The notes under the pieces are model-generated. The model had not been told where the DNA came from and searched no databases. It was given only the letters and a program-made list of their open reading frames with translations. From the sequence record NC_094493.1: 64,000 nt of DNA. One strand, 5' to 3'. The position numbers and the translations under genes are program-made. This DNA is from a phage. The first letter of the stretch is position 1. Each line of letters opens with the position of its first letter. This document shows positions 1-64,000 of this stretch, piece by piece.

Positions 1-1212
1 ATAAGCGATCTGCAGCAGAAGCGAATGCCTGACTGCAAGATACCTATGAAAATCAGCAATCAGGACGACATTAAGCGATACCTGATCAGTGCTGGTTGGC
101 TTCCGACAATGTGGAGAACTAAGGATGTAACTAAAGACAGCAAGAAGAAAGCTCTACCTGATGCAGATGTTGATGCACGAGTATATGCATACATGGACGA
201 GCTTTTAGAGTCAGAGTATTGTGACCTAATTATCAACTTCTGGAACAAAACTGATGCTAAGTTTCAGACAACAGTGCACAAGTTCCGAAGCTTTCCTAAC
301 TCCGAAAGGATTAAAAAGGAAGTATTCGGGAAAATACGTAGAAAAGCTAGGGCACTTATTACTTCTCCGCAACTGAAAGATACGTTTGGACACCTATGTC
401 CGAATCTTGAAAAATTGAACGGAGAGATGGCTAAGGATATCGTCTTGTGGTTATCCTTGCGAAACCGCAGATCGGTCCTTGATCCAATCAAGGAGGATAA
501 GGTTGATACTGGTCTTCTTAATCACCCACGCTTGAAGATTGACCATAAGCTTCCTGCTAAAAGCTCCGGATTAACAAACACTTCCAGACAGAAACACAGC
601 ATTTGTGCAAACATGCCTAAACCCTCTCCTAAAGTGGTTATGGGTAAGGAGATGCGTAGCTTGTGGGGTGTTCCTCCTGGATACTTTGAGATCGGTATTG
701 ACGGGTCCAACTTAGAGCAGCTTATCGGGGCTTGGGGTGCCTTTGAGTTCGACAACGGCTTGTATTATGATGTTGTAAGTAACGGGGACGCACACCAAAA
801 CAATGCTGAGGCATATACAAAAGTAGCAGGCAGAGAGGTGTCTCGTAACGACGGTAAACCTATCACGTATGGGGTTATGTACGGGGCACAAAAAGATAAA
901 GTTGCAGATATGCTGGACATCTCTCCAGAGTTGGGACAAAGGGTAATCGATGCACTCTGGGATGCCAACCCTGGTCTTAAGGGGCGCAAAGAGGATCTGG
1001 AGAAATTCTGGGAAGCAACAGGTAAGAAGTTTATCTACTCTTTTGATGGTCATGCTATCTGGACCCGATCTAAACACTCTTTACTTAATGCATACCAACA
1101 GAATGGTGGTGCATCGCTGTGTGACTTGGTTGGGATACTTATGCACCACCAAATGGTGAAGCGTGGGTGGTACGATGAAGGTGTTCGTCGTATTATTTAT
1201 TACCATAAATAA
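1..1212 (+). CDS. DNA polymerase, family A (Pol I/T7-like), C-terminal region; 5' end lies outside the window
   Basis: Frame is open from base 1. Motif A-like IDGSNLEQL and motif B-like RxxxxGKxITYGVMYG; segment after motif B aligns by eye with T7/Klenow up to just before motif C. No HDE motif before the stop. Confidence 0.65.
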   Translation: MSDLQQKRMPDCKIPMKISNQDDIKRYLISAGWLPTMWRTKDVTKDSKKKALPDADVDARVYAYMDELLESEYCDLIINFWNKTDAKFQTTVHKFRSFPNSERIKKEVFGKIRRKARALITSPQLKDTFGHLCPNLEKLNGEMAKDIVLWLSLRNRRSVLDPIKEDKVDTGLLNHPRLKIDHKLPAKSSGLTNTSRQKHSICANMPKPSPKVVMGKEMRSLWGVPPGYFEIGIDGSNLEQLIGAWGAFEFDNGLYYDVVSNGDAHQNNAEAYTKVAGREVSRNDGKPITYGVMYGAQKDKVADMLDISPELGQRVIDALWDANPGLKGRKEDLEKFWEATGKKFIYSFDGHAIWTRSKHSLLNAYQQNGGASLCDLVGILMHHQMVKRGWYDEGVRRIIYYHK

Positions 1213-1458
1213 CATTGTGGCTTCATAGAGTAATCTATGTCGAATAACCTCTTTAACTGCGGGAAGCCTAAACCTTATGGCAAGGTAATCCGCAACGAAG
1301 CGCTCAAAAGAGCGAACGCTCAGAGGCCATTCCGAAAGGAAGTAGACCAGCAAGTGCGGTCGAAATGGGAGGATTCCTGTGGTTGCTTATCATAGGAATA
1401 TGAGATGGTCCGATCCTACGTGAAAACGTATGGCTATGCACGTAATGGTGCGGGGTAG
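1213..1458 (+). other. Structured non-coding insert between the two polymerase ORFs; candidate group I intron
   Basis: In-frame stops separate two same-frame polymerase ORFs. Contains P-like TGCGGGAAG and Q-like AATCCGCAA elements in canonical order, plus several short hairpins with GAAA/GCAA loops. Confidence 0.3.
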
Positions 1459-20849: not shown

Positions 20850-23290
20850 GCTCTTCCCCCTACCATAAACGGCCCTACCTGGCAAGTGGAATAATTGACG
20901 AGCCATCAATCCCACACACTGTACAAATATACATGTAAAATAGCTATTGCATAACCTTTCATTGTGTGGTAGCAGGGCTATTTTTACCCGTTTTCCCTTC
21001 CAAAATTGCACGTAATGCCGCTATTGCACAAATTTTAACCTGATGCACATCTCCAATATCTTGTCAACAACTAAAAATCTTTATAAGTCATACACTTACA
21101 CAACATAGAAAGCGTGTCCTACGCGAAAAATCGAGTATAACTATAGCCGCCAGATCTCAGAATTCACGTACGCACGCCATTCTATAGCCTGCAAAGTATT
21201 TATTCCAACCACAGAATAACGGAATAGTCAATACCTGCATAAAATAATTATTCGTGTAAACTGCATAACATAAATCAGCTCAGGTGTCAACATTTTTCGT
21301 AAACAGTCCGAAATTATCACGATGAGTTATCATAAACAGAGAAATCTTTAGTCGTCTAATGTTTACTGTACATTACTATACTGACTGGAATCATTAGATG
21401 ACTAAGAGAAAGATAAGAAATAATTAATAATGTGATTATTTTACCTGTAACAATAAGGCAACTATGCAAACGAATGGCATGGCGCGACGGAGTCGCGACA
21501 TAATATAAAAGCAGTAACCATCACCCCCGTGATAGTTTGTCTGCAATCTATTAATCAGATCATAGTTGCCTTGTATTTAGTTAATCATGACATAACAAGC
21601 AAGGCAACTATAGATCTTCTAATAGTTGCCCTGCTTTTATATTATGTCATAGAAACACCCGAAGGGGTGACCAAAGGTCACCTGGCATAGCCAGCGAAAG
21701 ATTATTAACTTGCTAATCGTTATCATGCAAACGAATGGCATGGCTTATAATTTTTGAGCAAATAGTCTATACGTGAACAGTGAGGCATGCAATAGTAACA
21801 ATTGTTATTATATCCAGTGTTTAGTTTGCCCAGTGTGTCACTATTATGTCATATTATGTCACAGTATGTCAGACAAGTTTTTCTCCTCTTTGTCAAGTGC
21901 TGCATGAAAAATTTACAAGCTGGTATGGTAGCATTTTTGCGGTCCTGTTTACATTCAGTAATGTATGTATAATCCTTGTTGTGTGGGCGTTTAGACGTCT
22001 AGACGGTTGGAAGTCCACAGGTCAATATCTAATCTATCGGCTGCTAACTATATCCCACACAAATAGTAAGAAATATGATTGTTATATGCGTAAACAGTAA
22101 CTCATGTTATCAATCCCTGTATGTATCGCCAGTGGTGCGCATAATGGGTATTATGTTAAATTGCCCGTAATGATAATGGTTCTCACAATGATATGTATTC
22201 TCATTCCCCCACACAAAATAGATTGCAAATGTTGTGCCACTATGTGAACGGCCTCACCTATTAATTTGCCTCACTGCCTCGATATTTGAGAATTGTTATA
22301 AGAATGAGAATGATTCCCATTTCGTCCGCCTGGCAGCACTCCTGTAGGACAAGCACAAAATCGTGGCATAGCTGGACCTGTTCAGATATTTCTGGCTGGC
22401 TCTTCAGGTCTGTGTGGGAAAAGCCAACCCCCTCCGGCGGCGGGGAGGGTGTCAATTAAAAAATTTATGGGGTATATGAAGCGCTCTTCAGGTAAGGCAT
22501 GTACTATGGGATGAAACCCTCTTCAGGCAATGATATTTGTGGGTGTGATATTTGCTGGAAAGCCAGATATGACGGGACTCCCGGCGGGGCAGGGGTAGTA
22601 CAGACAGGGAAAATATGGGGATGTAGTTGGGTGAATTGATCGGGCAGGTAGAGTACGGAATATGTTACAAGTATGTTAAATATGGAGGGTGAATATCTGC
22701 AGGATTTGTGTGTAAAATCAAAGACTTAAGTAGTGTTGTGGTATTTTCTATAAATAATTCAAGTTTAATAGGTAATATTTGTCTCTATCCACTTTGTGTG
22801 GTAAACAAATTCAAATGAGATTGGTTTACAAGTGTATACATAATATGCAAATTAAAGATACAAGAAACCCCCCTCCCCCTTCGGCTACCATTCACCTTTT
22901 CCTCTGACTGGTACTTAAACACTTATTCAGACTCTTCAGGTTATCACCCATACACCATATGGCAGTGACTGGTGTCCTCCGGCCCCTCTTTCGTCACCCG
23001 TCCGCTTCGCCATGCTAATGCCATAGCCAAATGTTCGGTTGTTCACCCTGTTCACTCAGGTGTATCTCCATACCCCTTCAAACCGAAGAGAACAGAAAAC
23101 CCGAATTACTCGGTAAAAGAAAAGAGAAGAACTTAATTTTATCAGGATAGGCAAGAATGTCAAGGCATGACTGCTCACTAAACAAGCAAACAGTCATGTG
23201 TGGGAGGTAAGTGATTGTGGTGGTAGGAAATTTAGTTGAAAGATGTGTTATAGGTGCTTCCAGCACTTTAGCCTGGCAGCTAATTGTGTG
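20850..23290. other. ~2.4 kb non-coding, repeat-rich convergence region between the + and - gene blocks
   Basis: No convincing ORF. Short direct repeats (AACGAATGGCATGGC x2; GGCAACTAT/ATAGTTGCC in both orientations; TATGTCA x3; CTCTTCAGG x3); GC hairpins around 22430 and 22580. Confidence 0.5.
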
Positions 23291-23626: not shown

Positions 23627-24040
23627 TCATAGTCTACCACCCCTGAACTCTTCGTGCTCAGGCATAATAGAGAACCAGATATCTACGATGTCTTCCCACG
23701 TTAGGTCATCAGCCTCAGGATCTACCTGGAGCGAAGATGGAGAATCTTCAGAATCGAAGTTTTCCTCTTTCACTGGCTCAGCCAAGGGACATATAGTCAC
23801 TCCTTTGGATGTCTCTTCAAATGCATGTGTGTTTATCATGTTCCACCCGTGAGTATTCCGGCAACAGCCACTATGGACGTAATGATCATCAGGATCACCA
23901 CCAAAACCTCTGACAATGTTTTCATTGTGTGTCCCATATTCTCCAAACGATGTGTGGATACTATCACTGGAGCGGAAATGTGTCAACAGAAACGTCGCGA
24001 GGGTTTGGTTAAAATCCGAGCGTATGGTGATTTGGGTCAA
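23627..24040 (-). CDS. hypothetical protein
   Basis: ORF in - strand gene-dense block. Confidence 0.45.
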   Translation of the reverse strand: MTQITIRSDFNQTLATFLLTHFRSSDSIHTSFGEYGTHNENIVRGFGGDPDDHYVHSGCCRNTHGWNMINTHAFEETSKGVTICPLAEPVKEENFDSEDSPSSLQVDPEADDLTWEDIVDIWFSIMPEHEEFRGGRL

Positions 24041-61282: not shown

Positions 61283-61633
61283 ATGAAAGATGGGGATAAG
61301 CTGCTATATCTTAAAGTCCCCCTTGAAATACTGTCTATGTCAAAAGTTTTGAATGACACAACTGGGGAGGTTGTTGTTCTTGACTTATATGACAAGATCG
61401 TATACTGCTACCTGCACAACTGGTATAAGCTTGGAGGAAATTCACGCTTCACACCCAGCACAAGGAAAATTGCAGCAGATGTTGGGATAAAGAAAACAAA
61501 AGCAGCAGCGTGCGTTAAAACTTTAGAATGTGCAGGAGTGGTTGAAATATCCACACAAGGGAGAGGTAAAAGATGTACATTTTCCAAAGTTTTGCCACCA
61601 GAAGAGGTTATTCGAATGTCAACAACTGGTTAG
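61283..61633 (+). CDS. HTH DNA-binding protein (putative replication initiator or regulator)
   Basis: Helix-turn-helix-like STRKIAADVGIKKTKAAACVKTLECAGVVE; immediately upstream of the palindrome array. Confidence 0.5.
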   Translation: MKDGDKLLYLKVPLEILSMSKVLNDTTGEVVVLDLYDKIVYCYLHNWYKLGGNSRFTPSTRKIAADVGIKKTKAAACVKTLECAGVVEISTQGRGKRCTFSKVLPPEEVIRMSTTG

Positions 61634-61706
61634 ACCAGTAAAAACTTAAATATCTGTACTATAAGGATTCGTATGTTTTATGTTCGCTCTGGAACAGAGG
61701 TCAGTA

Positions 61707-61790
61707 ACTGTCCGTGATACGGACACTACTGTCCGTCACGCGGACACATCTGCCCGTAATACGGACACTAACTGTCCGTGATACGGACAC
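61707..61790. repeat. Four tandem 21-bp imperfect palindromes (iteron/operator array)
   Basis: ACTGTCCGTGATACGGACACT repeated four times head-to-tail with minor variation; each is a GTCCGT-N3-ACGGAC palindrome. Confidence 0.75.
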
Positions 61791-61920
61791 ATAAAGAATA
61801 TAACTAAAATAACTAAATAATAAAAATAAAAGATCTAGTACTTATGGTACTAAGTACATATACTTAACTTATGTAGAATATACTAGATCCTAAGTACCAT
61901 GTTTTAAAATTATTACTTAC
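61791..61920. other. AT-rich tract adjacent to the palindrome array (possible DNA unwinding element)
   Basis: About 80 percent A+T over ~130 bp, with palindromes AGTACTTA/TAAGTAC. Confidence 0.45.
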
Positions 61921-62160
61921 TATAGGTAGTGTCGGCCCTTCATTGGCACTCGCCTACGAGGGGCGAGATGCCGGGCCTCCTTGGTGCACACAATAACAGA
62001 AGTGCATACATGCAGGTCTGTTAACATGTGTGGGAGCGAAGCGATAGCGCAGGCCAAAGGCCGAGCACTGATGTGGACCACCGACGAAAGCTTGCCAGCG
62101 CCGTAAGGAGTCGGTTGAGAGTCTCCCGCGCGAGCTTGGATGAAGTTTATGTGTGGAAAC
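61921..62160. ncRNA. GC-rich structured island (candidate ncRNA)
   Basis: Sharp rise in G+C with many short complementary segments; the only ORF is a - strand R/P/C-rich artefact. Confidence 0.25.
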
Positions 62161-62292
62161 TGACAAGAAGGCCCCTAAATCGCTCCACAGCTATATAAAC
62201 TATACCAGGTAATGCAATCGCACCAGTTTGATAGAAAAGCTCGTTACAAAGTGATACAGTGAGTTTTTCTATAACTTGAAGAGGAGGCGGCT

Positions 62293-62871
62293 ATGGGTTC
62301 ACGCAAAGATGACCGTGAAAAGATTGCAAAACGTTATCAGAATGAAGAACAGATGGAGAAAACTTTCAAATGGAAGCCTGGTTTCCAGCGTAATCATTCT
62401 AACGCTCGTGATCGTAAGCATCCAGATAAGTGGCTAACACCGCCAAATGATGGCATGCAGGTTGGTGATGAGAAGGAGATGTCACCTGGAAAAGATGGCA
62501 ACTACATTCGCACTAAGGAAGCTGGTCCAAAGGATGACAGCTATCTTGTAGATAAGGTTCTTAATGGTATTGATGTAGATGTTGACACTGCACGAAACCT
62601 TTTTCTTGGTTGGTATCGTACAGGGTTTTTCGACATCAAGGCTATTCGTCGTGTTTGTGATATTAAAAAGTCTGCCTATGATGATGACTCCCTACATCGC
62701 ACTCTGAGACAATACTCAGAGAGATACGGTCATCCAGTTATCACTCTTGACGATATTAACGAAGTGATGTATCATGCAGAGGTTGTTGCAGGTAGATTCG
62801 GTGATGCATATCTAGATATCCTTTCTGCAAAGGATGAGGTAATGTTAAATAAGATTTACTATGAACGCTGA
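62293..62871 (+). CDS. hypothetical protein
   Basis: 192 aa ORF with strong RBS gaagaggaggcggct ATG. Confidence 0.55.
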   Translation: MGSRKDDREKIAKRYQNEEQMEKTFKWKPGFQRNHSNARDRKHPDKWLTPPNDGMQVGDEKEMSPGKDGNYIRTKEAGPKDDSYLVDKVLNGIDVDVDTARNLFLGWYRTGFFDIKAIRRVCDIKKSAYDDDSLHRTLRQYSERYGHPVITLDDINEVMYHAEVVAGRFGDAYLDILSAKDEVMLNKIYYER

Positions 62872-62881
62872 GGGGTGCTTA

Positions 62882-63070
62882 ATGAACAATCCGGTAGCAA
62901 AGAACTGTAATAAGTTCAACAAGTCTGCAATTCACACTGACAGGAAAAAGAGCTGGTCTCCTGACATTGACGAGGAGCTTGAGAGTTACTTTGAAGACAT
63001 GGTCACCAATGCAGATGAGGTTGCGATTAAAGAATACGCAGACAGGAAGGATAAGGCCGGAATCTGTTGA
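62882..63070 (+). CDS. hypothetical protein
   Basis: RBS gaggggtgctta ATG. Confidence 0.45.
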   Translation: MNNPVAKNCNKFNKSAIHTDRKKSWSPDIDEELESYFEDMVTNADEVAIKEYADRKDKAGIC

Positions 63071-63146
63071 CAAAAATAGTGTTACCTGATAAGATCTGCA
63101 ATATGATGTGATGCAATTTTAACTTACGAGGTCTACAGGTAATGCT

Positions 63147-63389
63147 ATGTTTAAGGTTAAGCTCGTTTTTCGTTCCATGAATGAGGATTATTTAGAAGAT
63201 GAAGGTGAATTTCGTGCACTGGATGATGCAATAGATTTTGCCAACGACTTAGCTTGTATGAATACAGGTTATGGGCTATGTTGTTGGGATGGTGGTGTTC
63301 AGATCGGTGATAGCAAGATCTTCTACTTCTACCCTGAGCCTGATAACAAACAAATTAAGTATGTTTTATTTATTTGTGCTTTACAATGA
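63147..63389 (+). CDS. hypothetical protein
   Basis: 80 aa ORF. Confidence 0.4.
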   Translation: MFKVKLVFRSMNEDYLEDEGEFRALDDAIDFANDLACMNTGYGLCCWDGGVQIGDSKIFYFYPEPDNKQIKYVLFICALQ

Positions 63390-63469
63390 GGTTGTTTTCG
63401 TGTATCATGATGAATATCCAATTTAAAGATGAATTTGATGGCTTTATCTCTGGATGCTTTGAAACAGGG

Positions 63470-63690
63470 TTCGGAGAAGGCTGAGTTCCCCTTAGAGGGC
63501 TTGATAGTGCACCACACTTAAAATGGTAGGGGCAGCCAGCACATGACGATGTGACCCCAGCCAACCTGTAACAAGGTCGAGCCGAAGCGCGGGTAATAGG
63601 CCTCTGGTAACCCACTTGTTGGGTCTTGCTGGTCCAGGACGCTGGACAAGTCGCAGGGAATACCACCCTGCGGCGAACTTGACAATCAGT
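63470..63690. ncRNA. GC-rich structured island (candidate ncRNA)
   Basis: High G+C with many complementary segments, upstream of promoter-like TTGACA at ~63679; - strand ORF there has artefactual composition. Confidence 0.25.
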
Positions 63691-63735
63691 ATTTGCTATG
63701 ATAAAATCCACCTATCACGTGATAATGGAGGAAAC

Positions 63736-64000
63736 ATGGCGGATACAACTAAAAAGCGTCGCCGTAGAGGCAGACCTCTGAAAGAGGAGTCCAACGCCAT
63801 TCAGCTAGAGAAGAACATCCTTGATATGAAGGAATCTTTTATAGCGATGGTTCCAGAAGCTCACAAAGTTTTAAGAGAGCTGATGTTGGACCCGAAAACC
63901 AAACAAAATATTCGTCAAAGCATTGCAGAGTATGTTCTTGATAAGGCAGACCGAATGCAGGAAGAATATGATGAGATGTTTGGTGAAGAGGAAGAGGTGG
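63736..64000 (+). CDS. hypothetical protein, partial (3' end outside the window)
   Basis: RBS ggaggaaac ATG; basic N-terminus (KKRRRRGRP) then acidic region; ORF open to window end. Confidence 0.5.
   Translation, partial: MADTTKKRRRRGRPLKEESNAIQLEKNILDMKESFIAMVPEAHKVLRELMLDPKTKQNIRQSIAEYVLDKADRMQEEYDEMFGEEEEV

What the first reader, a model, noticed from the sequence alone, without database searches (positions are those of the whole stretch)
61921..63690. Two GC-rich structured islands in otherwise AT-rich intergenic DNA
Segments 61921-62160 and 63470-63690 are markedly GC-rich and full of short complementary runs. The ORFs predicted in them have R/P/C-rich artefactual composition. They may encode structured non-coding RNAs or be horizontally acquired fragments.
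Basis: seen in the sequence. Interest (0 to 1): 0.45.

Follow-up and report, generated by a model that had tools for sequence, protein, structure and literature searches.

The report
Two conserved structured RNAs in rV5-like phage
Two GC-rich patches in an rV5-like E. coli phage are real, non-coding, folded elements, most likely RNAs, that match no catalogued RNA family; one lies beside the phage's probable replication origin and also occurs in a small family of phage-like E. coli plasmids.

Summary
The window is an rV5-like E. coli phage (Vequintavirus). Both islands are real: 56% GC against a window mean of 42.7%. Frame-breaking indels show they are not coding. Neither matches any Rfam family, tRNA or tmRNA.

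Related genomes show compensatory and wobble-only substitutions in hairpins read on the + strand. So both are conserved structured elements, most likely RNA.

Island 1 (about 61929-62180) follows a winged-helix initiator gene, four iterons and a 130-bp stretch of 20% GC. That is an iteron-type origin layout. A divergent relative has swapped the initiator and iterons but kept island 1. The island's core also lies next to unrelated iterons in eight roughly 13-kb circular E. coli plasmids, one recorded as a 39.6-kb trimer. These plasmids encode capsid and tail proteins and no annotated terminase or portal, so they look like phage satellites.

I infer that island 1 is an initiator-independent, origin-associated cis element, acting as a pre-primer or replisome-loading signal.

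Island 2 (about 63485-63677) is unrelated to island 1 and is confined to Vequintavirus. It sits between a 25-codon gene and the promoter of the next gene. In sister genera, tRNA genes occupy that position. Its function is unknown.

No transcript data were found. Both mechanisms are inferred, not shown.

The parts
61283..61633 (+). 116-aa winged-helix protein, the probable replication initiator ('Rep116'). Context for island 1.
   Evidence: Pfam HTH_36 and DUF6945, both just below their curated cut-offs. PHROG phrog_12838 'replication initiation protein', E 2.5e-80. 24% identical to the N-terminal domain of the plasmids' 288-aa Rep. Replaced by a different 143-aa protein in L007.
61699..61790 (.). 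Four iterons (core CTGTCCGTGATACGGACAC) spaced 21-22 bp apart.
   Evidence: the repeat finder family D1. Annotated as repeat_region in phage nom. L007 carries five different iterons at the same place.
61791..61920 (.). AT-rich stretch (20% GC) containing an 11-nt inverted repeat. Candidate DNA-unwinding element.
   Evidence: GC 0.20. Inverted repeat 61844-61854 / 61890-61900.
61929..62180 (+). Island 1: conserved non-coding structured element, about 250 nt.
   Evidence: 56% GC. Present in all 118 Vequintavirus records at 89-100% identity. No Rfam match. Folding z = -3.2. Covariance model R2 finds one copy per genome.
61934..61977 (+). Island 1 helix H1, a three-part hairpin: GGCCC/GGGCC, GGCA/UGCC, CUCGCC/GGCGAG, with loop UACGAGG.
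   Evidence: Plasmid L027 has GUCA/UGAC and CUCUCC/GGAGAG, two compensatory G-C to U-A exchanges. 96% identical in the divergent phage L007.
62071..62133 (+). Island 1 core: AUGUGGACC, then helix H2 (CCGAC 62081-62085 / GUCGG 62110-62114, inner CUUGC/GUAAG, loop CAGCGCC), then AGAGUCUCCCGCGCG.
   Evidence: The unpaired stretches are identical in phages and type-1 plasmids, while the H2 stem changes to CUGCC/GGCAG, two compensatory pairs. Covariation score 0.204 against 0.106 +/- 0.013 in shuffles, 0 of 500 as high. Type-2 plasmids carry a different 8-bp hairpin in its place.
62126..62156 (+). Island 1 helix H3, a G.U-rich hairpin (CCGCGCGAGCUU / AAGUUUAUGUGUGG).
   Evidence: RNAalifold pairs, columns 210-240 of A7. 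Four G.U pairs. One pair shows the series C-G / U.G / U-A and another G.U / G-C across phages. Valid only on the + strand. Replaced by other short hairpins in the plasmids.
62206..62224 (.). Near-palindrome CCAGGTAATGCAATCGCACC downstream of island 1. The plasmids carry the same motif inverted (GTGCAATTGCATTACCTG). Candidate protein-binding site.
   Evidence: Read directly. Not tested further.
63407..63484 (+). 25-codon ORF whose stop codon abuts island 2. It defines the 5' limit of island 2.
   Evidence: All five differences from L007 are synonymous third-position changes. Annotated as a CDS in phages nom and YP-6. Promoter-like site at 63380-63408, 10 of 12 matches.
63485..63677 (+). Island 2: conserved non-coding structured element, about 193 nt, unrelated to island 1.
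   Evidence: 57% GC. Present in all 118 Vequintavirus records at 90-100% identity. No Rfam match. Over 16 distinct sequences, 99.7% of cells pair. Covariance model R1 finds only this copy and none in other genera or in the plasmids.
63540..63553 (+). Island 2 hairpin B (CACAU-GACG-AUGUG), inside the invariant 5' half.
   Evidence: Invariant in all 16 sequences, so it is neither supported nor refuted by covariation.
63610..63624 (+). Island 2 hairpin D (ACCCA-CUUGU-UGGGU).
   Evidence: A-U to U-A exchange in L007. Hairpin D is removed almost exactly (14 nt) in phiWec189; in metagenome contig L025 a 10-nt deletion removes its loop and 3' arm.
63632..63647 (+). Island 2 hairpin E (GUCCAG-GACG-CUGGAC).
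   Evidence: Two compensatory pairs in L007 (GCUCAG/CUGAGC). U-A to U.G in five sequences and C-G to U.G in one. All are allowed only on the + strand.
63650..63674 (+). Island 2 hairpin F (GUCGCAGGG-AAUACCA-CCCUGCGGC).
   Evidence: Nine pairs, one C-G to U.G change, loop variable.
63679..63707 (+). Sigma-70-type promoter (TTGACA-17-TAAAAT) of ORF74. It bounds island 2 at the 3' side.
   Evidence: 11 of 12 matches. Annotated as P74 in phage rV5.

Best explanation
Both islands are conserved, non-coding, single-strand-structured elements read on the + strand. They are most likely structured RNAs transcribed with the rightward early genes. They are two different elements, not copies of one family.

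Island 1 is the initiator-independent part of an iteron-type replication-origin module. The order is initiator gene, iterons, AT-rich unwinding stretch, island 1. I infer that it acts in cis at the origin. Its hairpins would display invariant unpaired sequences (AUGUGGACC, GAAAG, loop CAGCGCC, AGAGUCUCCCGCGCG) to a factor that does not depend on which initiator or iterons are present. Candidate factors are the phage's primase-helicase or polymerase, or a host replication factor. The element could work as a pre-primer or R-loop-forming transcript, or as a priming or helicase-loading signal. The roughly 13-kb phage-like plasmids carry the same core next to their own iterons. This would let them use the same factor.

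Island 2 is a separate, genus-specific structured RNA. It lies in the 3' untranslated region of a 25-codon gene, at the upstream edge of the ORF74 and tRNA block. Its most likely role is a processed stable small RNA or a cis-acting 3'-end or processing element. This is a weak inference.

Shown: the islands exist, are non-coding, are conserved, have + strand structure with covariation, sit in the described genomic context, and are distributed as described. Inferred: transcription, the link to replication, and any mechanism.
For: Existence and non-coding nature: GC content; frame-breaking indels.

Structure of island 2: 55 predicted pairs over 16 distinct sequences, 99.7% paired. Three pairs change on both sides (4 of 500 shuffles as high). 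Seven one-sided changes in helices E and F all go to G.U, and only 0.3% of cells in the model fail to pair. Hairpin D is removed almost exactly in one genome and partly deleted in another.

Structure of island 1: compensatory exchanges in H1 and H2 between phage and plasmid copies. Covariation score 0.204 against 0.106 +/- 0.013, 0 of 500 shuffles as high. H3 is G.U-rich and shows a C-G/U.G/U-A series. Folding z = -3.2.

Origin context: HTH_36 and 'replication initiation protein' matches for the 116-aa protein. Four iterons at 21-22 bp spacing. A 20% GC stretch.

Initiator independence: L007 has another initiator and other iterons but keeps island 1, at 96% identity in H1 and 91% in the core, against 85-89% in the flanking genes. 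The plasmids carry at least two further iteron types, a Rep only 24% identical to Rep116, and still an 84-85% identical island 1 core in the same order and orientation.

Specificity: one copy per replicon and none in sister genera.
Against: - No transcript, replication-start or genetic data exist for any of these elements.
- Island 2's folding energy is not better than shuffles.
- Most double changes in island 2 come from a single lineage (L007). Sequence diversity is low, at 89-100% identity.
- The middle of island 1 has no stable consensus fold. The putative closing helix has 3 mismatches among 17 sequences.
- In the plasmids, strong promoters lie downstream of the island-1-like core, so what transcribes it there is unknown.
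- Adjacency to the origin could reflect linkage to the downstream operon rather than function. Island 1 also sits near the head of a long co-directional gene array, which fits a regulatory leader equally well.
- DnaA-box-like motifs reach only 7 of 9 matches (read from the sequence).
- Nothing ties island 2 to replication.
Confidence: 0.45

Rival explanations
1. Island 1 works as single-stranded DNA, not RNA. In this reading it is a single-strand initiation (ssi) or primosome-assembly signal. When the adjacent AT-rich region is opened, the strand folds into hairpins that a primase or helicase loader recognises. Known examples, from my own knowledge, are the G-site downstream of oriR in plasmid R1 and ssiA/ssiB of RSF1010.
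For: The layout is the same as in iteron plasmids: iterons, AT-rich stretch, then a GC-rich hairpin block. The element is independent of the initiator. It is shared by a phage and by plasmids that encode no annotated primase or polymerase. The two best-supported helices, H1 and H2a, contain only Watson-Crick pairs. Both strands fold well, z = -3.2 and -2.95.
Against: Helix H3 has four G.U pairs and wobble-type substitutions. As G.T mismatches these would make a DNA hairpin weak. No similarity to any known ssi sequence could be tested. Island 2 shows RNA-type wobble changes, so at least one of the two islands is RNA.
Confidence: 0.2
2. Both islands are cis-regulatory RNA leaders or spacers of the long rightward transcription unit. 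Possible roles are processive antitermination (put/nut-like), an RNase processing site or an mRNA-stabilising element. In this reading, the plasmids copied island 1 so that their own operon responds to a phage-encoded transcription factor.
For: Structure is on the + strand, co-directional with all flanking genes. rV5 is proposed to have one transcription unit running through this region into the tRNA, lysis and structural genes (PMC3606486). No promoter is annotated between the initiator gene and ORF77, so island 1 should lie inside a polycistronic RNA. In the plasmids the element precedes the long Rep-to-tape-measure operon. A second short hairpin element is also shared between phage and plasmids, as expected if regulatory signals are being mimicked.
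Against: In the plasmids, consensus promoters lie between the island-1-like core and the operon. Island 2 ends exactly at the -35 box of the next promoter, so it is not in that gene's leader. The scan found no terminators in the region. No similarity to put, nut or any Rfam cis-regulatory family. This reading does not explain the fixed position next to iterons in unrelated replicons.
Confidence: 0.2
3. The islands encode trans-acting small RNAs. Candidates are decoys or inhibitors of host defence or host RNA enzymes, or stable RNAs processed together with the tRNA cluster like the T4 'species 1 and 2' RNAs (from my own knowledge).
For: Island 2 lies at the upstream edge of the tRNA block, where sister genera carry tRNA genes. 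Its 5' half is almost invariant: it differs from the divergent phage L007 at 2 of 86 positions (97.7%). RNA repair genes (RNA ligase, polynucleotide kinase/phosphatase) lie 1-3 kb upstream.
Against: No terminator or obvious 3' end. No tRNA-like features. No complementarity to E. coli detected by BLAST on either strand. Island 1's fixed position beside iterons is not explained.
Confidence: 0.1
4. The islands are functionless GC-rich remnants, for example decayed tRNA genes or fragments of foreign DNA, that are conserved only because the genus is young.
For: The available genomes differ little (89-100% identity). Island 2 folds no better than shuffles. tRNA genes occupy the island 2 position in other genera.
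Against: Compensatory changes keep the helices intact. The island 1 core is 84-85% identical between replicons whose Rep proteins are 24% identical and which share no other protein-level similarity nearby. Parts of the islands are more conserved than the flanking coding sequence. No tRNA signal at any threshold.
Confidence: 0.05

Closest known systems
Single-strand initiation (ssi) signals and primosome assembly sites beside plasmid origins (R1 G-site, RSF1010 ssiA/ssiB, G4 oric type). Recalled from my own knowledge.
   Same: A GC-rich block of several hairpins placed next to the iterons and AT-rich stretch of an origin. Independent of which initiator is used. Can be shared or exchanged between replicons.
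   Different: Those signals act as DNA. Island 1 has a G.U-rich helix and wobble substitutions that point to RNA. No sequence comparison with known ssi signals was possible, and no functional assay exists.
Origin transcripts that prime replication: ColE1 RNA II, and the T4 oriF/oriG and T7 primary-origin transcripts. Recalled from my own knowledge.
   Same: A structured or R-loop-forming RNA made at the origin, whose fold decides whether priming occurs.
   Different: Those origins have no initiator and iteron system. No promoter, RNase H site or RNA-DNA transition is identified here. No Rfam family matched.
Cis-acting antitermination RNAs of lambdoid phages (HK022 put, lambda nut). Recalled from my own knowledge.
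   Same: Short conserved hairpins with invariant unpaired bases near the head of a long operon, read on the sense strand.
   Different: put and nut are about 20-70 nt and lie just downstream of a promoter. Island 1 is about 250 nt, lies beside iterons, and in the plasmids sits upstream of the operon's promoters.
Stable non-tRNA RNAs of the phage T4 tRNA region ('species 1 and 2' RNAs). Recalled from my own knowledge.
   Same: For island 2: a conserved non-tRNA structured element at a phage tRNA cluster, with unknown function.
   Different: No sequence or structure comparison was possible. Island 2 is separated from the tRNAs by ORF74 and its promoter. No processing signal was found.
Helper-phage cis-acting sites carried by phage satellites, for example the P2-type cos site on P4. 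Recalled from my own knowledge.
   Same: A small element that encodes some virion proteins but lacks most of a phage genome, and shares short non-coding sequences with a large phage while sharing almost no protein similarity.
   Different: A helper-satellite relation between rV5-like phages and these plasmids is not demonstrated. The shared element lies at an origin and is not shown to be a packaging site.

Membership tests
Any Rfam 15 RNA family (4227 models) | Score at or above the family's gathering threshold | tested here: not met
   The whole window at gathering thresholds gives only a group I intron at 1197-1432. For 61600-64000 at E<=10 there are three chance-level hits: rli43 at 20.7 bits against a threshold of 100, UPD-PK2, and STnc410. 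The plasmids and L007 give only tRNAs.
tRNA / tmRNA (including decayed copies) | Cloverleaf detected by ARAGORN or the Rfam tRNA model | tested here: not met
   ARAGORN finds no gene in the window. No tRNA hit at E<=10 over the islands.
Group I intron | Match to the RF00028 core, and insertion within a gene | tested here: not met
   RF00028 matches only 1197-1432. Neither island interrupts an ORF.
Protein-coding gene | Reading frame preserved among relatives | tested here: not met
   Indels of 1, 2, 14 and 18 nt lie inside the islands. In contrast, the neighbouring 25-codon ORF shows only synonymous changes.
Structured RNA (generic criterion) | Base pairs kept through compensatory or wobble changes on one strand | tested here: met
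   Island 2: (3 double changes, 7 wobble-only changes, 99.7% paired). Island 1. The caveat is few independent lineages.
Structured RNA (generic criterion) | Folding energy below dinucleotide shuffles | tested here: inconclusive
   Island 1 gives z = -3.2. Island 2 gives z = -0.9 to -1.1.
Structured RNA (generic criterion) | A transcript is detected | not testable with these tools
   No expression data are available and no Vequintavirus transcriptome paper was found.
Iteron-type replication origin (context of island 1) | Three or more direct repeats in helical phase | tested here: met
   Four copies at 21-22 bp spacing, 61699-61790. Five copies in L007 and 4-6 in the plasmids.
Iteron-type replication origin (context of island 1) | Adjacent AT-rich unwinding stretch | tested here: met
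   61791-61920 is 20% GC.
Iteron-type replication origin (context of island 1) | Adjacent gene for a winged-helix initiator | tested here: met
   HTH_36 and PHROG replication-initiation families. The Pfam scores are just below the curated cut-offs.
Iteron-type replication origin (context of island 1) | Replication actually starts here | not testable with these tools
   The GC-skew switch at about 60.2 kb coincides with the switch in gene orientation and is not informative (PMC3606486).
ssi / primosome assembly signal | Supports primase-dependent complementary-strand synthesis on single-stranded DNA | not testable with these tools
   Only the position and the hairpin content could be assessed.
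Phage satellite (the 13-kb plasmids) | Encodes only a subset of virion genes and lacks terminase, portal and replisome | tested here: inconclusive
   The annotations and PHROG scan show major capsid, neck/tail-completion, baseplate-like, tape-measure and Rep proteins, and no annotated terminase, portal or polymerase. Several ORFs have no match.
Phage satellite (the 13-kb plasmids) | Depends on, and is packaged by, a helper phage | not testable with these tools
   The only hints are shared non-coding elements with the phage and remote (22-25%) similarity of the capsid and tape-measure proteins to those of Vequintavirinae-type phages.

The most novel reading that the evidence does not exclude
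Island 1, together with a second three-hairpin element at 21649-21701 and 23764-23820, is a recognition signal shared between rV5-like phages and a family of plasmid-borne phage satellites for which I found no description in the literature searched. By carrying the helper's structured origin-associated RNA next to their own iterons, the roughly 13-kb plasmids would capture the helper's replication or expression machinery on infection. Island 1 would then be the first RNA-type 'helper handle' of a satellite. Island 2 would be a new genus-specific phage small RNA.
Probability: 0.25. Interest if true: 0.8.

Novelty: new variant of a known kind. Interest (0 to 1): 0.6.

Why it matters
rV5-like phages are widely isolated and are used in E. 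coli biocontrol and therapy cocktails. Yet these two elements are either unannotated or mis-annotated as hypothetical proteins in GenBank records.

If island 1 is an origin-associated RNA, it would locate the so far undefined replication origin of this genus. It would also add a structured-RNA component to an iteron-type origin.

The occurrence of its core in capsid- and tail-encoding 13-kb plasmids points to an uncharacterised satellite-like family in E. coli. It offers a concrete, testable handle on how that family might exploit a lytic myovirus.

Both elements are candidates for new RNA families.

Tried and rejected
Rfam: searched at gathering thresholds on the whole window and at E<=10 on 61600-64000. 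Nothing relevant. Rfam on the plasmids and L007 gave only tRNAs.

ARAGORN: none.

Host origin: blastn of both islands against 5,426 complete E. coli genomes gave no chromosomal match.

Wider distribution by blastn in the phage collection: only the 118 Vequintavirus records.

IMG/VR and metagenome pattern scans: only close relatives, plus two 17-mer chance hits, L008 and L009.

Two GTDB genome scans: no hits.

Synteny approach: ORF77 is genus-specific. ORF74 homologues in Mydovirus, Seunavirus-like, Avunavirus and Certrevirus phages are preceded by tRNA genes, not by an island-2-like element.

Homology between the two islands: neither covariance model finds the other island.

A closing stem for island 2 that reaches into the small ORF was rejected. 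It gives A.C mismatches in two sequences, and the ORF is under coding constraint.

A T7-like promoter reading of TACTATAGGTAG upstream of island 1 was rejected, because the motif is not conserved among strains.

Literature searches for a Vequintavirus transcriptome, non-coding RNAs or satellites found nothing relevant.

Protein similarity between the phage genes around the islands and the plasmids: none beyond the initiator winged-helix domain.
Full report
WHAT THE WINDOW IS. The last 2.4 kb of the window is 98-99.5% identical to more than 100 Vequintavirus (rV5-like) E. coli myoviruses. Annotated relatives give this gene order, all on the + strand:
- polynucleotide kinase/phosphatase
- phosphoesterase
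- a 116-aa 'transcriptional regulator / replication initiation protein'
- a repeat region
- a 660-bp gap
- ORF77, ORF76, ORF75 and a 99-nt ORF
- a 250-bp gap
- ORF74
- the tRNA cluster, just past the end of the window
.

They are the two highest GC peaks in the 64 kb. Island 1 follows a 130-bp stretch of 20% GC. Island 2 is bounded by a coding sequence and a promoter, and the DNA between the islands is ordinary coding sequence. The R/P/C-rich ORFs inside the islands are artefacts. Relatives carry indels of 1, 2, 3, 14 and 18 nt there.

NOT A KNOWN RNA, NOT HOST DNA. Rfam gives no hit over the islands at gathering thresholds or at E<=10. The only Rfam match in the window is a group I intron at 1197-1432. 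ARAGORN finds nothing. Island 2 has no match in 5,426 complete E. coli genomes, and island 1 matches no chromosome. Both islands occur in all 118 Vequintavirus records at 89-100% identity. blastn finds them in no other phage.

STRUCTURE OF ISLAND 2 (63485-63677). Its 5' limit is the stop codon of a 25-codon ORF. All five differences between that ORF and the divergent relative L007 are synonymous. Its 3' limit is the -35 box of the ORF74 promoter.

Over 16 distinct sequences, a 55-pair model is 99.7% paired. Three pairs change on both sides:
- hairpin E: GUCCAG/CUGGAC to GCUCAG/CUGAGC
- hairpin D: A-U to U-A

Seven one-sided changes in helices E and F all go to G.U, and only 0.3% of cells in the model fail to pair. 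Sliding the partners drops pairing to 27-44%.

Hairpin D is removed almost exactly (14 nt) in phiWec189, and its loop and 3' arm are deleted in one metagenome contig, L025. G.U-only changes are permitted on the + strand only, so the folded strand is the sense strand of the flanking genes.

Three weaknesses remain. Folding energy is not better than shuffles, z = -0.9 on either strand. The invariant 5' half gives no covariation information. The double changes come from one lineage.

STRUCTURE OF ISLAND 1 (61929-62180). Within the phages the element is very conserved, and its consensus fold is stable only in parts. The decisive comparison came from an unexpected source. blastn against E. coli genomes hit unannotated DNA on small circular 'plasmids'. 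In NZ_CP020521.1 two blocks match at 84-85% identity, and each shows clean compensatory exchanges:
- GGCA/UGCC to GUCA/UGAC
- CUCGCC/GGCGAG to CUCUCC/GGAGAG
- CCGAC/GUCGG to CUGCC/GGCAG

The unpaired stretches GAAAG, the loop CAGCGCC, AUGUGGACC and AGAGUCUCCCGCGCG stay identical.

On a 17-sequence alignment of the core, the covariation score is 0.204 against 0.106 +/- 0.013 in shuffles, with 0 of 500 as high. A third helix (62126-62156) has four G.U pairs. One of its pairs shows the series C-G / U.G / U-A among phages. This favours RNA on the + strand. Folding z is -3.2.

A covariance model of the core finds exactly one copy in the window, in L007 and in every plasmid unit. It finds none in four other Vequintavirinae genera. 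The island 2 model finds only island 2. The two islands are therefore unrelated single-copy elements.

CONTEXT OF ISLAND 1: AN ITERON-TYPE ORIGIN. Three features sit immediately upstream of island 1:
- A 116-aa protein matches Pfam HTH_36 and PHROG 'replication initiation protein' families.
- Four iterons spaced 21-22 bp apart follow it.
- A 20% GC stretch with an inverted repeat comes next.

Two further facts show that island 1 does not depend on the initiator.

First, the divergent rV5-like contig L007 has no nucleotide similarity over the initiator and iterons. It encodes a different 143-aa protein and five different iterons. Yet it keeps island 1 at 96% identity in H1 and 91% in the core, above the 85-89% of the flanking genes.

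Second, the plasmids have their own Rep, 288 aa and 24% identical to Rep116 in the winged-helix domain. They carry at least two further iteron types. Even so, they carry the island 1 core in the same order and orientation: iterons, AT-rich stretch, GC-rich hairpins, core. Some plasmids replace H2 with a different 8-bp hairpin at the same place, and their upstream hairpin differs by compensatory changes (AUGC/GCAU against GUGC/GCAC). This is the behaviour expected of a structured element.

THE PLASMIDS. Eight records carry the element: seven complete circular molecules of 13.2-13.7 kb and one 39.6-kb trimer. It was found in 7 of the 5,426 E. coli genomes, and the eighth record comes from PLSDB. 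They encode a major capsid protein, a neck/tail-completion protein, a baseplate-like protein, a tape-measure protein, HTH proteins and Rep. No terminase, portal or polymerase is annotated. Each has a non-coding region of about 2.3 kb.

Their capsid and tape-measure proteins are only 22-25% identical to those of phages of about 133-145 kb. The longest tape-measure matches are to Vequintavirus. They look like phage satellites, but helper dependence is untested and I found no description of them in the literature searched.

Besides island 1 they share with the phage a second 51-56-nt element made of three back-to-back hairpins. It lies at window 21649-21701 and, inverted, at 23764-23820. It again shows a compensatory change: CUGGC/GCCAG to CUGCC/GGCAG. 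No protein near the islands is shared.

CONTEXT OF ISLAND 2. In Mydovirus, Certrevirus and a Seunavirus-like Salmonella phage, the ORF74 homologue lies inside the tRNA cluster, with tRNA genes directly upstream. In Vequintavirus that position holds island 2, which has no tRNA features. Nothing links it to an origin or to the plasmids.

INTERPRETATION. Shown: both islands are conserved, non-coding, folded on the + strand, single-copy and unrelated to each other and to any Rfam family. Island 1 is a module that stays beside iteron origins of four or more specificities in two very different kinds of replicon.

Inferred for island 1: it is an initiator-independent, origin-associated cis element. 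It is probably RNA, acting as a pre-primer or R-loop-forming transcript or as a replisome-loading signal. Its invariant unpaired bases would be read by a factor common to the phage and the plasmids.

Rivals for island 1:
- the same role played as single-stranded DNA (ssi-like)
- a regulatory leader, antitermination or processing element of the long rightward operon
- a trans-acting small RNA

For island 2 I can only offer a weak guess: a stable processed small RNA or a 3'-end/processing element at the edge of the tRNA block. No transcriptome of these phages was found.

VERDICT. The 'structured non-coding RNA' reading is supported by comparative evidence rather than by Rfam or, for island 2, by thermodynamics. 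The 'host fragment' reading is rejected. The finding is of moderate to good interest. It yields two candidate new RNA motifs in a well-studied phage genus, a probable location for its origin, and a lead to an apparently undescribed satellite-like plasmid family.

Noticed in passing
L027-L034 (NZ_CP020521.1, NZ_CP043822.1, CP148565.1, NZ_CP035869.1, NZ_CP074841.1, NZ_CP178698.1, NZ_JBUCKS010000006.1, NZ_AP045055.1): A family of circular E. coli 'plasmids' of about 13.2-13.7 kb, one of them a 39.6-kb trimer. They encode a major capsid protein, a neck/tail-completion protein, a baseplate-like protein, a tape-measure protein, Rep and HTH proteins. No terminase, portal or polymerase is annotated. 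Each has a non-coding region of about 2.3 kb with iterons. They look like an undescribed plasmid-borne phage satellite.
   Followed up: partly
window 21649-21701 (+) and 23764-23820 (inverted); L027 10882-10937, L030 10646-10700, L031 9966-10020 and 3055-3105, L032 8549-8599: A second short non-coding element is shared by the phage and the plasmids at 82-88% identity. It consists of three back-to-back GC hairpins followed by (C/U)GAAAG, with a compensatory change in the third hairpin. The two phage copies face each other across a stretch (21011-23211) with no ORF of 80 aa or more. That stretch may correspond to the 'non-coding' box drawn in the rV5 genome paper; its position there was not checked.
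   Followed up: partly
window 1197-1432 (+): A group I intron: Rfam RF00028, 64.7 bits, E 4e-14, full-length match. This is the only Rfam hit in the window. The host gene was not examined.
   Followed up: no
L007 1819-2380 versus window 61283-61925: In a divergent rV5-like metagenome genome, the initiator gene (143 aa instead of 116 aa) and the iterons (GATACATATTTGCATCAGAT, five copies) are replaced as a cassette with no nucleotide similarity. The flanks, including island 1, are kept.
   Followed up: yes
window 63407-63484 (+): A 25-codon ORF (MMNIQFKDEFDGFISGCFETGFGEG) appears to be a real gene. All five differences from L007 are synonymous. It is annotated in only some records.
   Followed up: partly
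window 62206-62224; plasmid non-coding regions (alignment): The near-palindrome CCAGGTAATGCAATCGCACC, downstream of island 1, recurs in inverted form (GTGCAATTGCATTACCTG) downstream of the island-1-like core in all plasmids, after a shared CCCCTAAAT. It is a possible operator.
   Followed up: no
L013, L014, L016: In other Vequintavirinae genera the ORF74 homologue is embedded in the tRNA cluster, with tRNA genes where Vequintavirus has island 2. Record PQ002170.1 is filed under Demerecviridae although it has this Vequintavirinae-type layout.
   Followed up: partly
phage records MG065635-MG065690: Eighteen records named 'Campylobacter phage', with host Campylobacter jejuni, are 97-100% identical to E. 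coli rV5-like phages over this region. They are probably mislabelled or propagated on a contaminating host.
   Followed up: no
L007 3577-4428: An insertion of about 850 bp lies between ORF77 and ORF76 in the divergent relative and is absent from the window. Its content was not examined.
   Followed up: no
CP057073.1: A 137.6-kb 'plasmid' in an E. coli assembly from cattle faeces matches the island 1 region. It has the size of an rV5-like phage genome, which suggests a phage carried in or co-purified with the culture.
   Followed up: no
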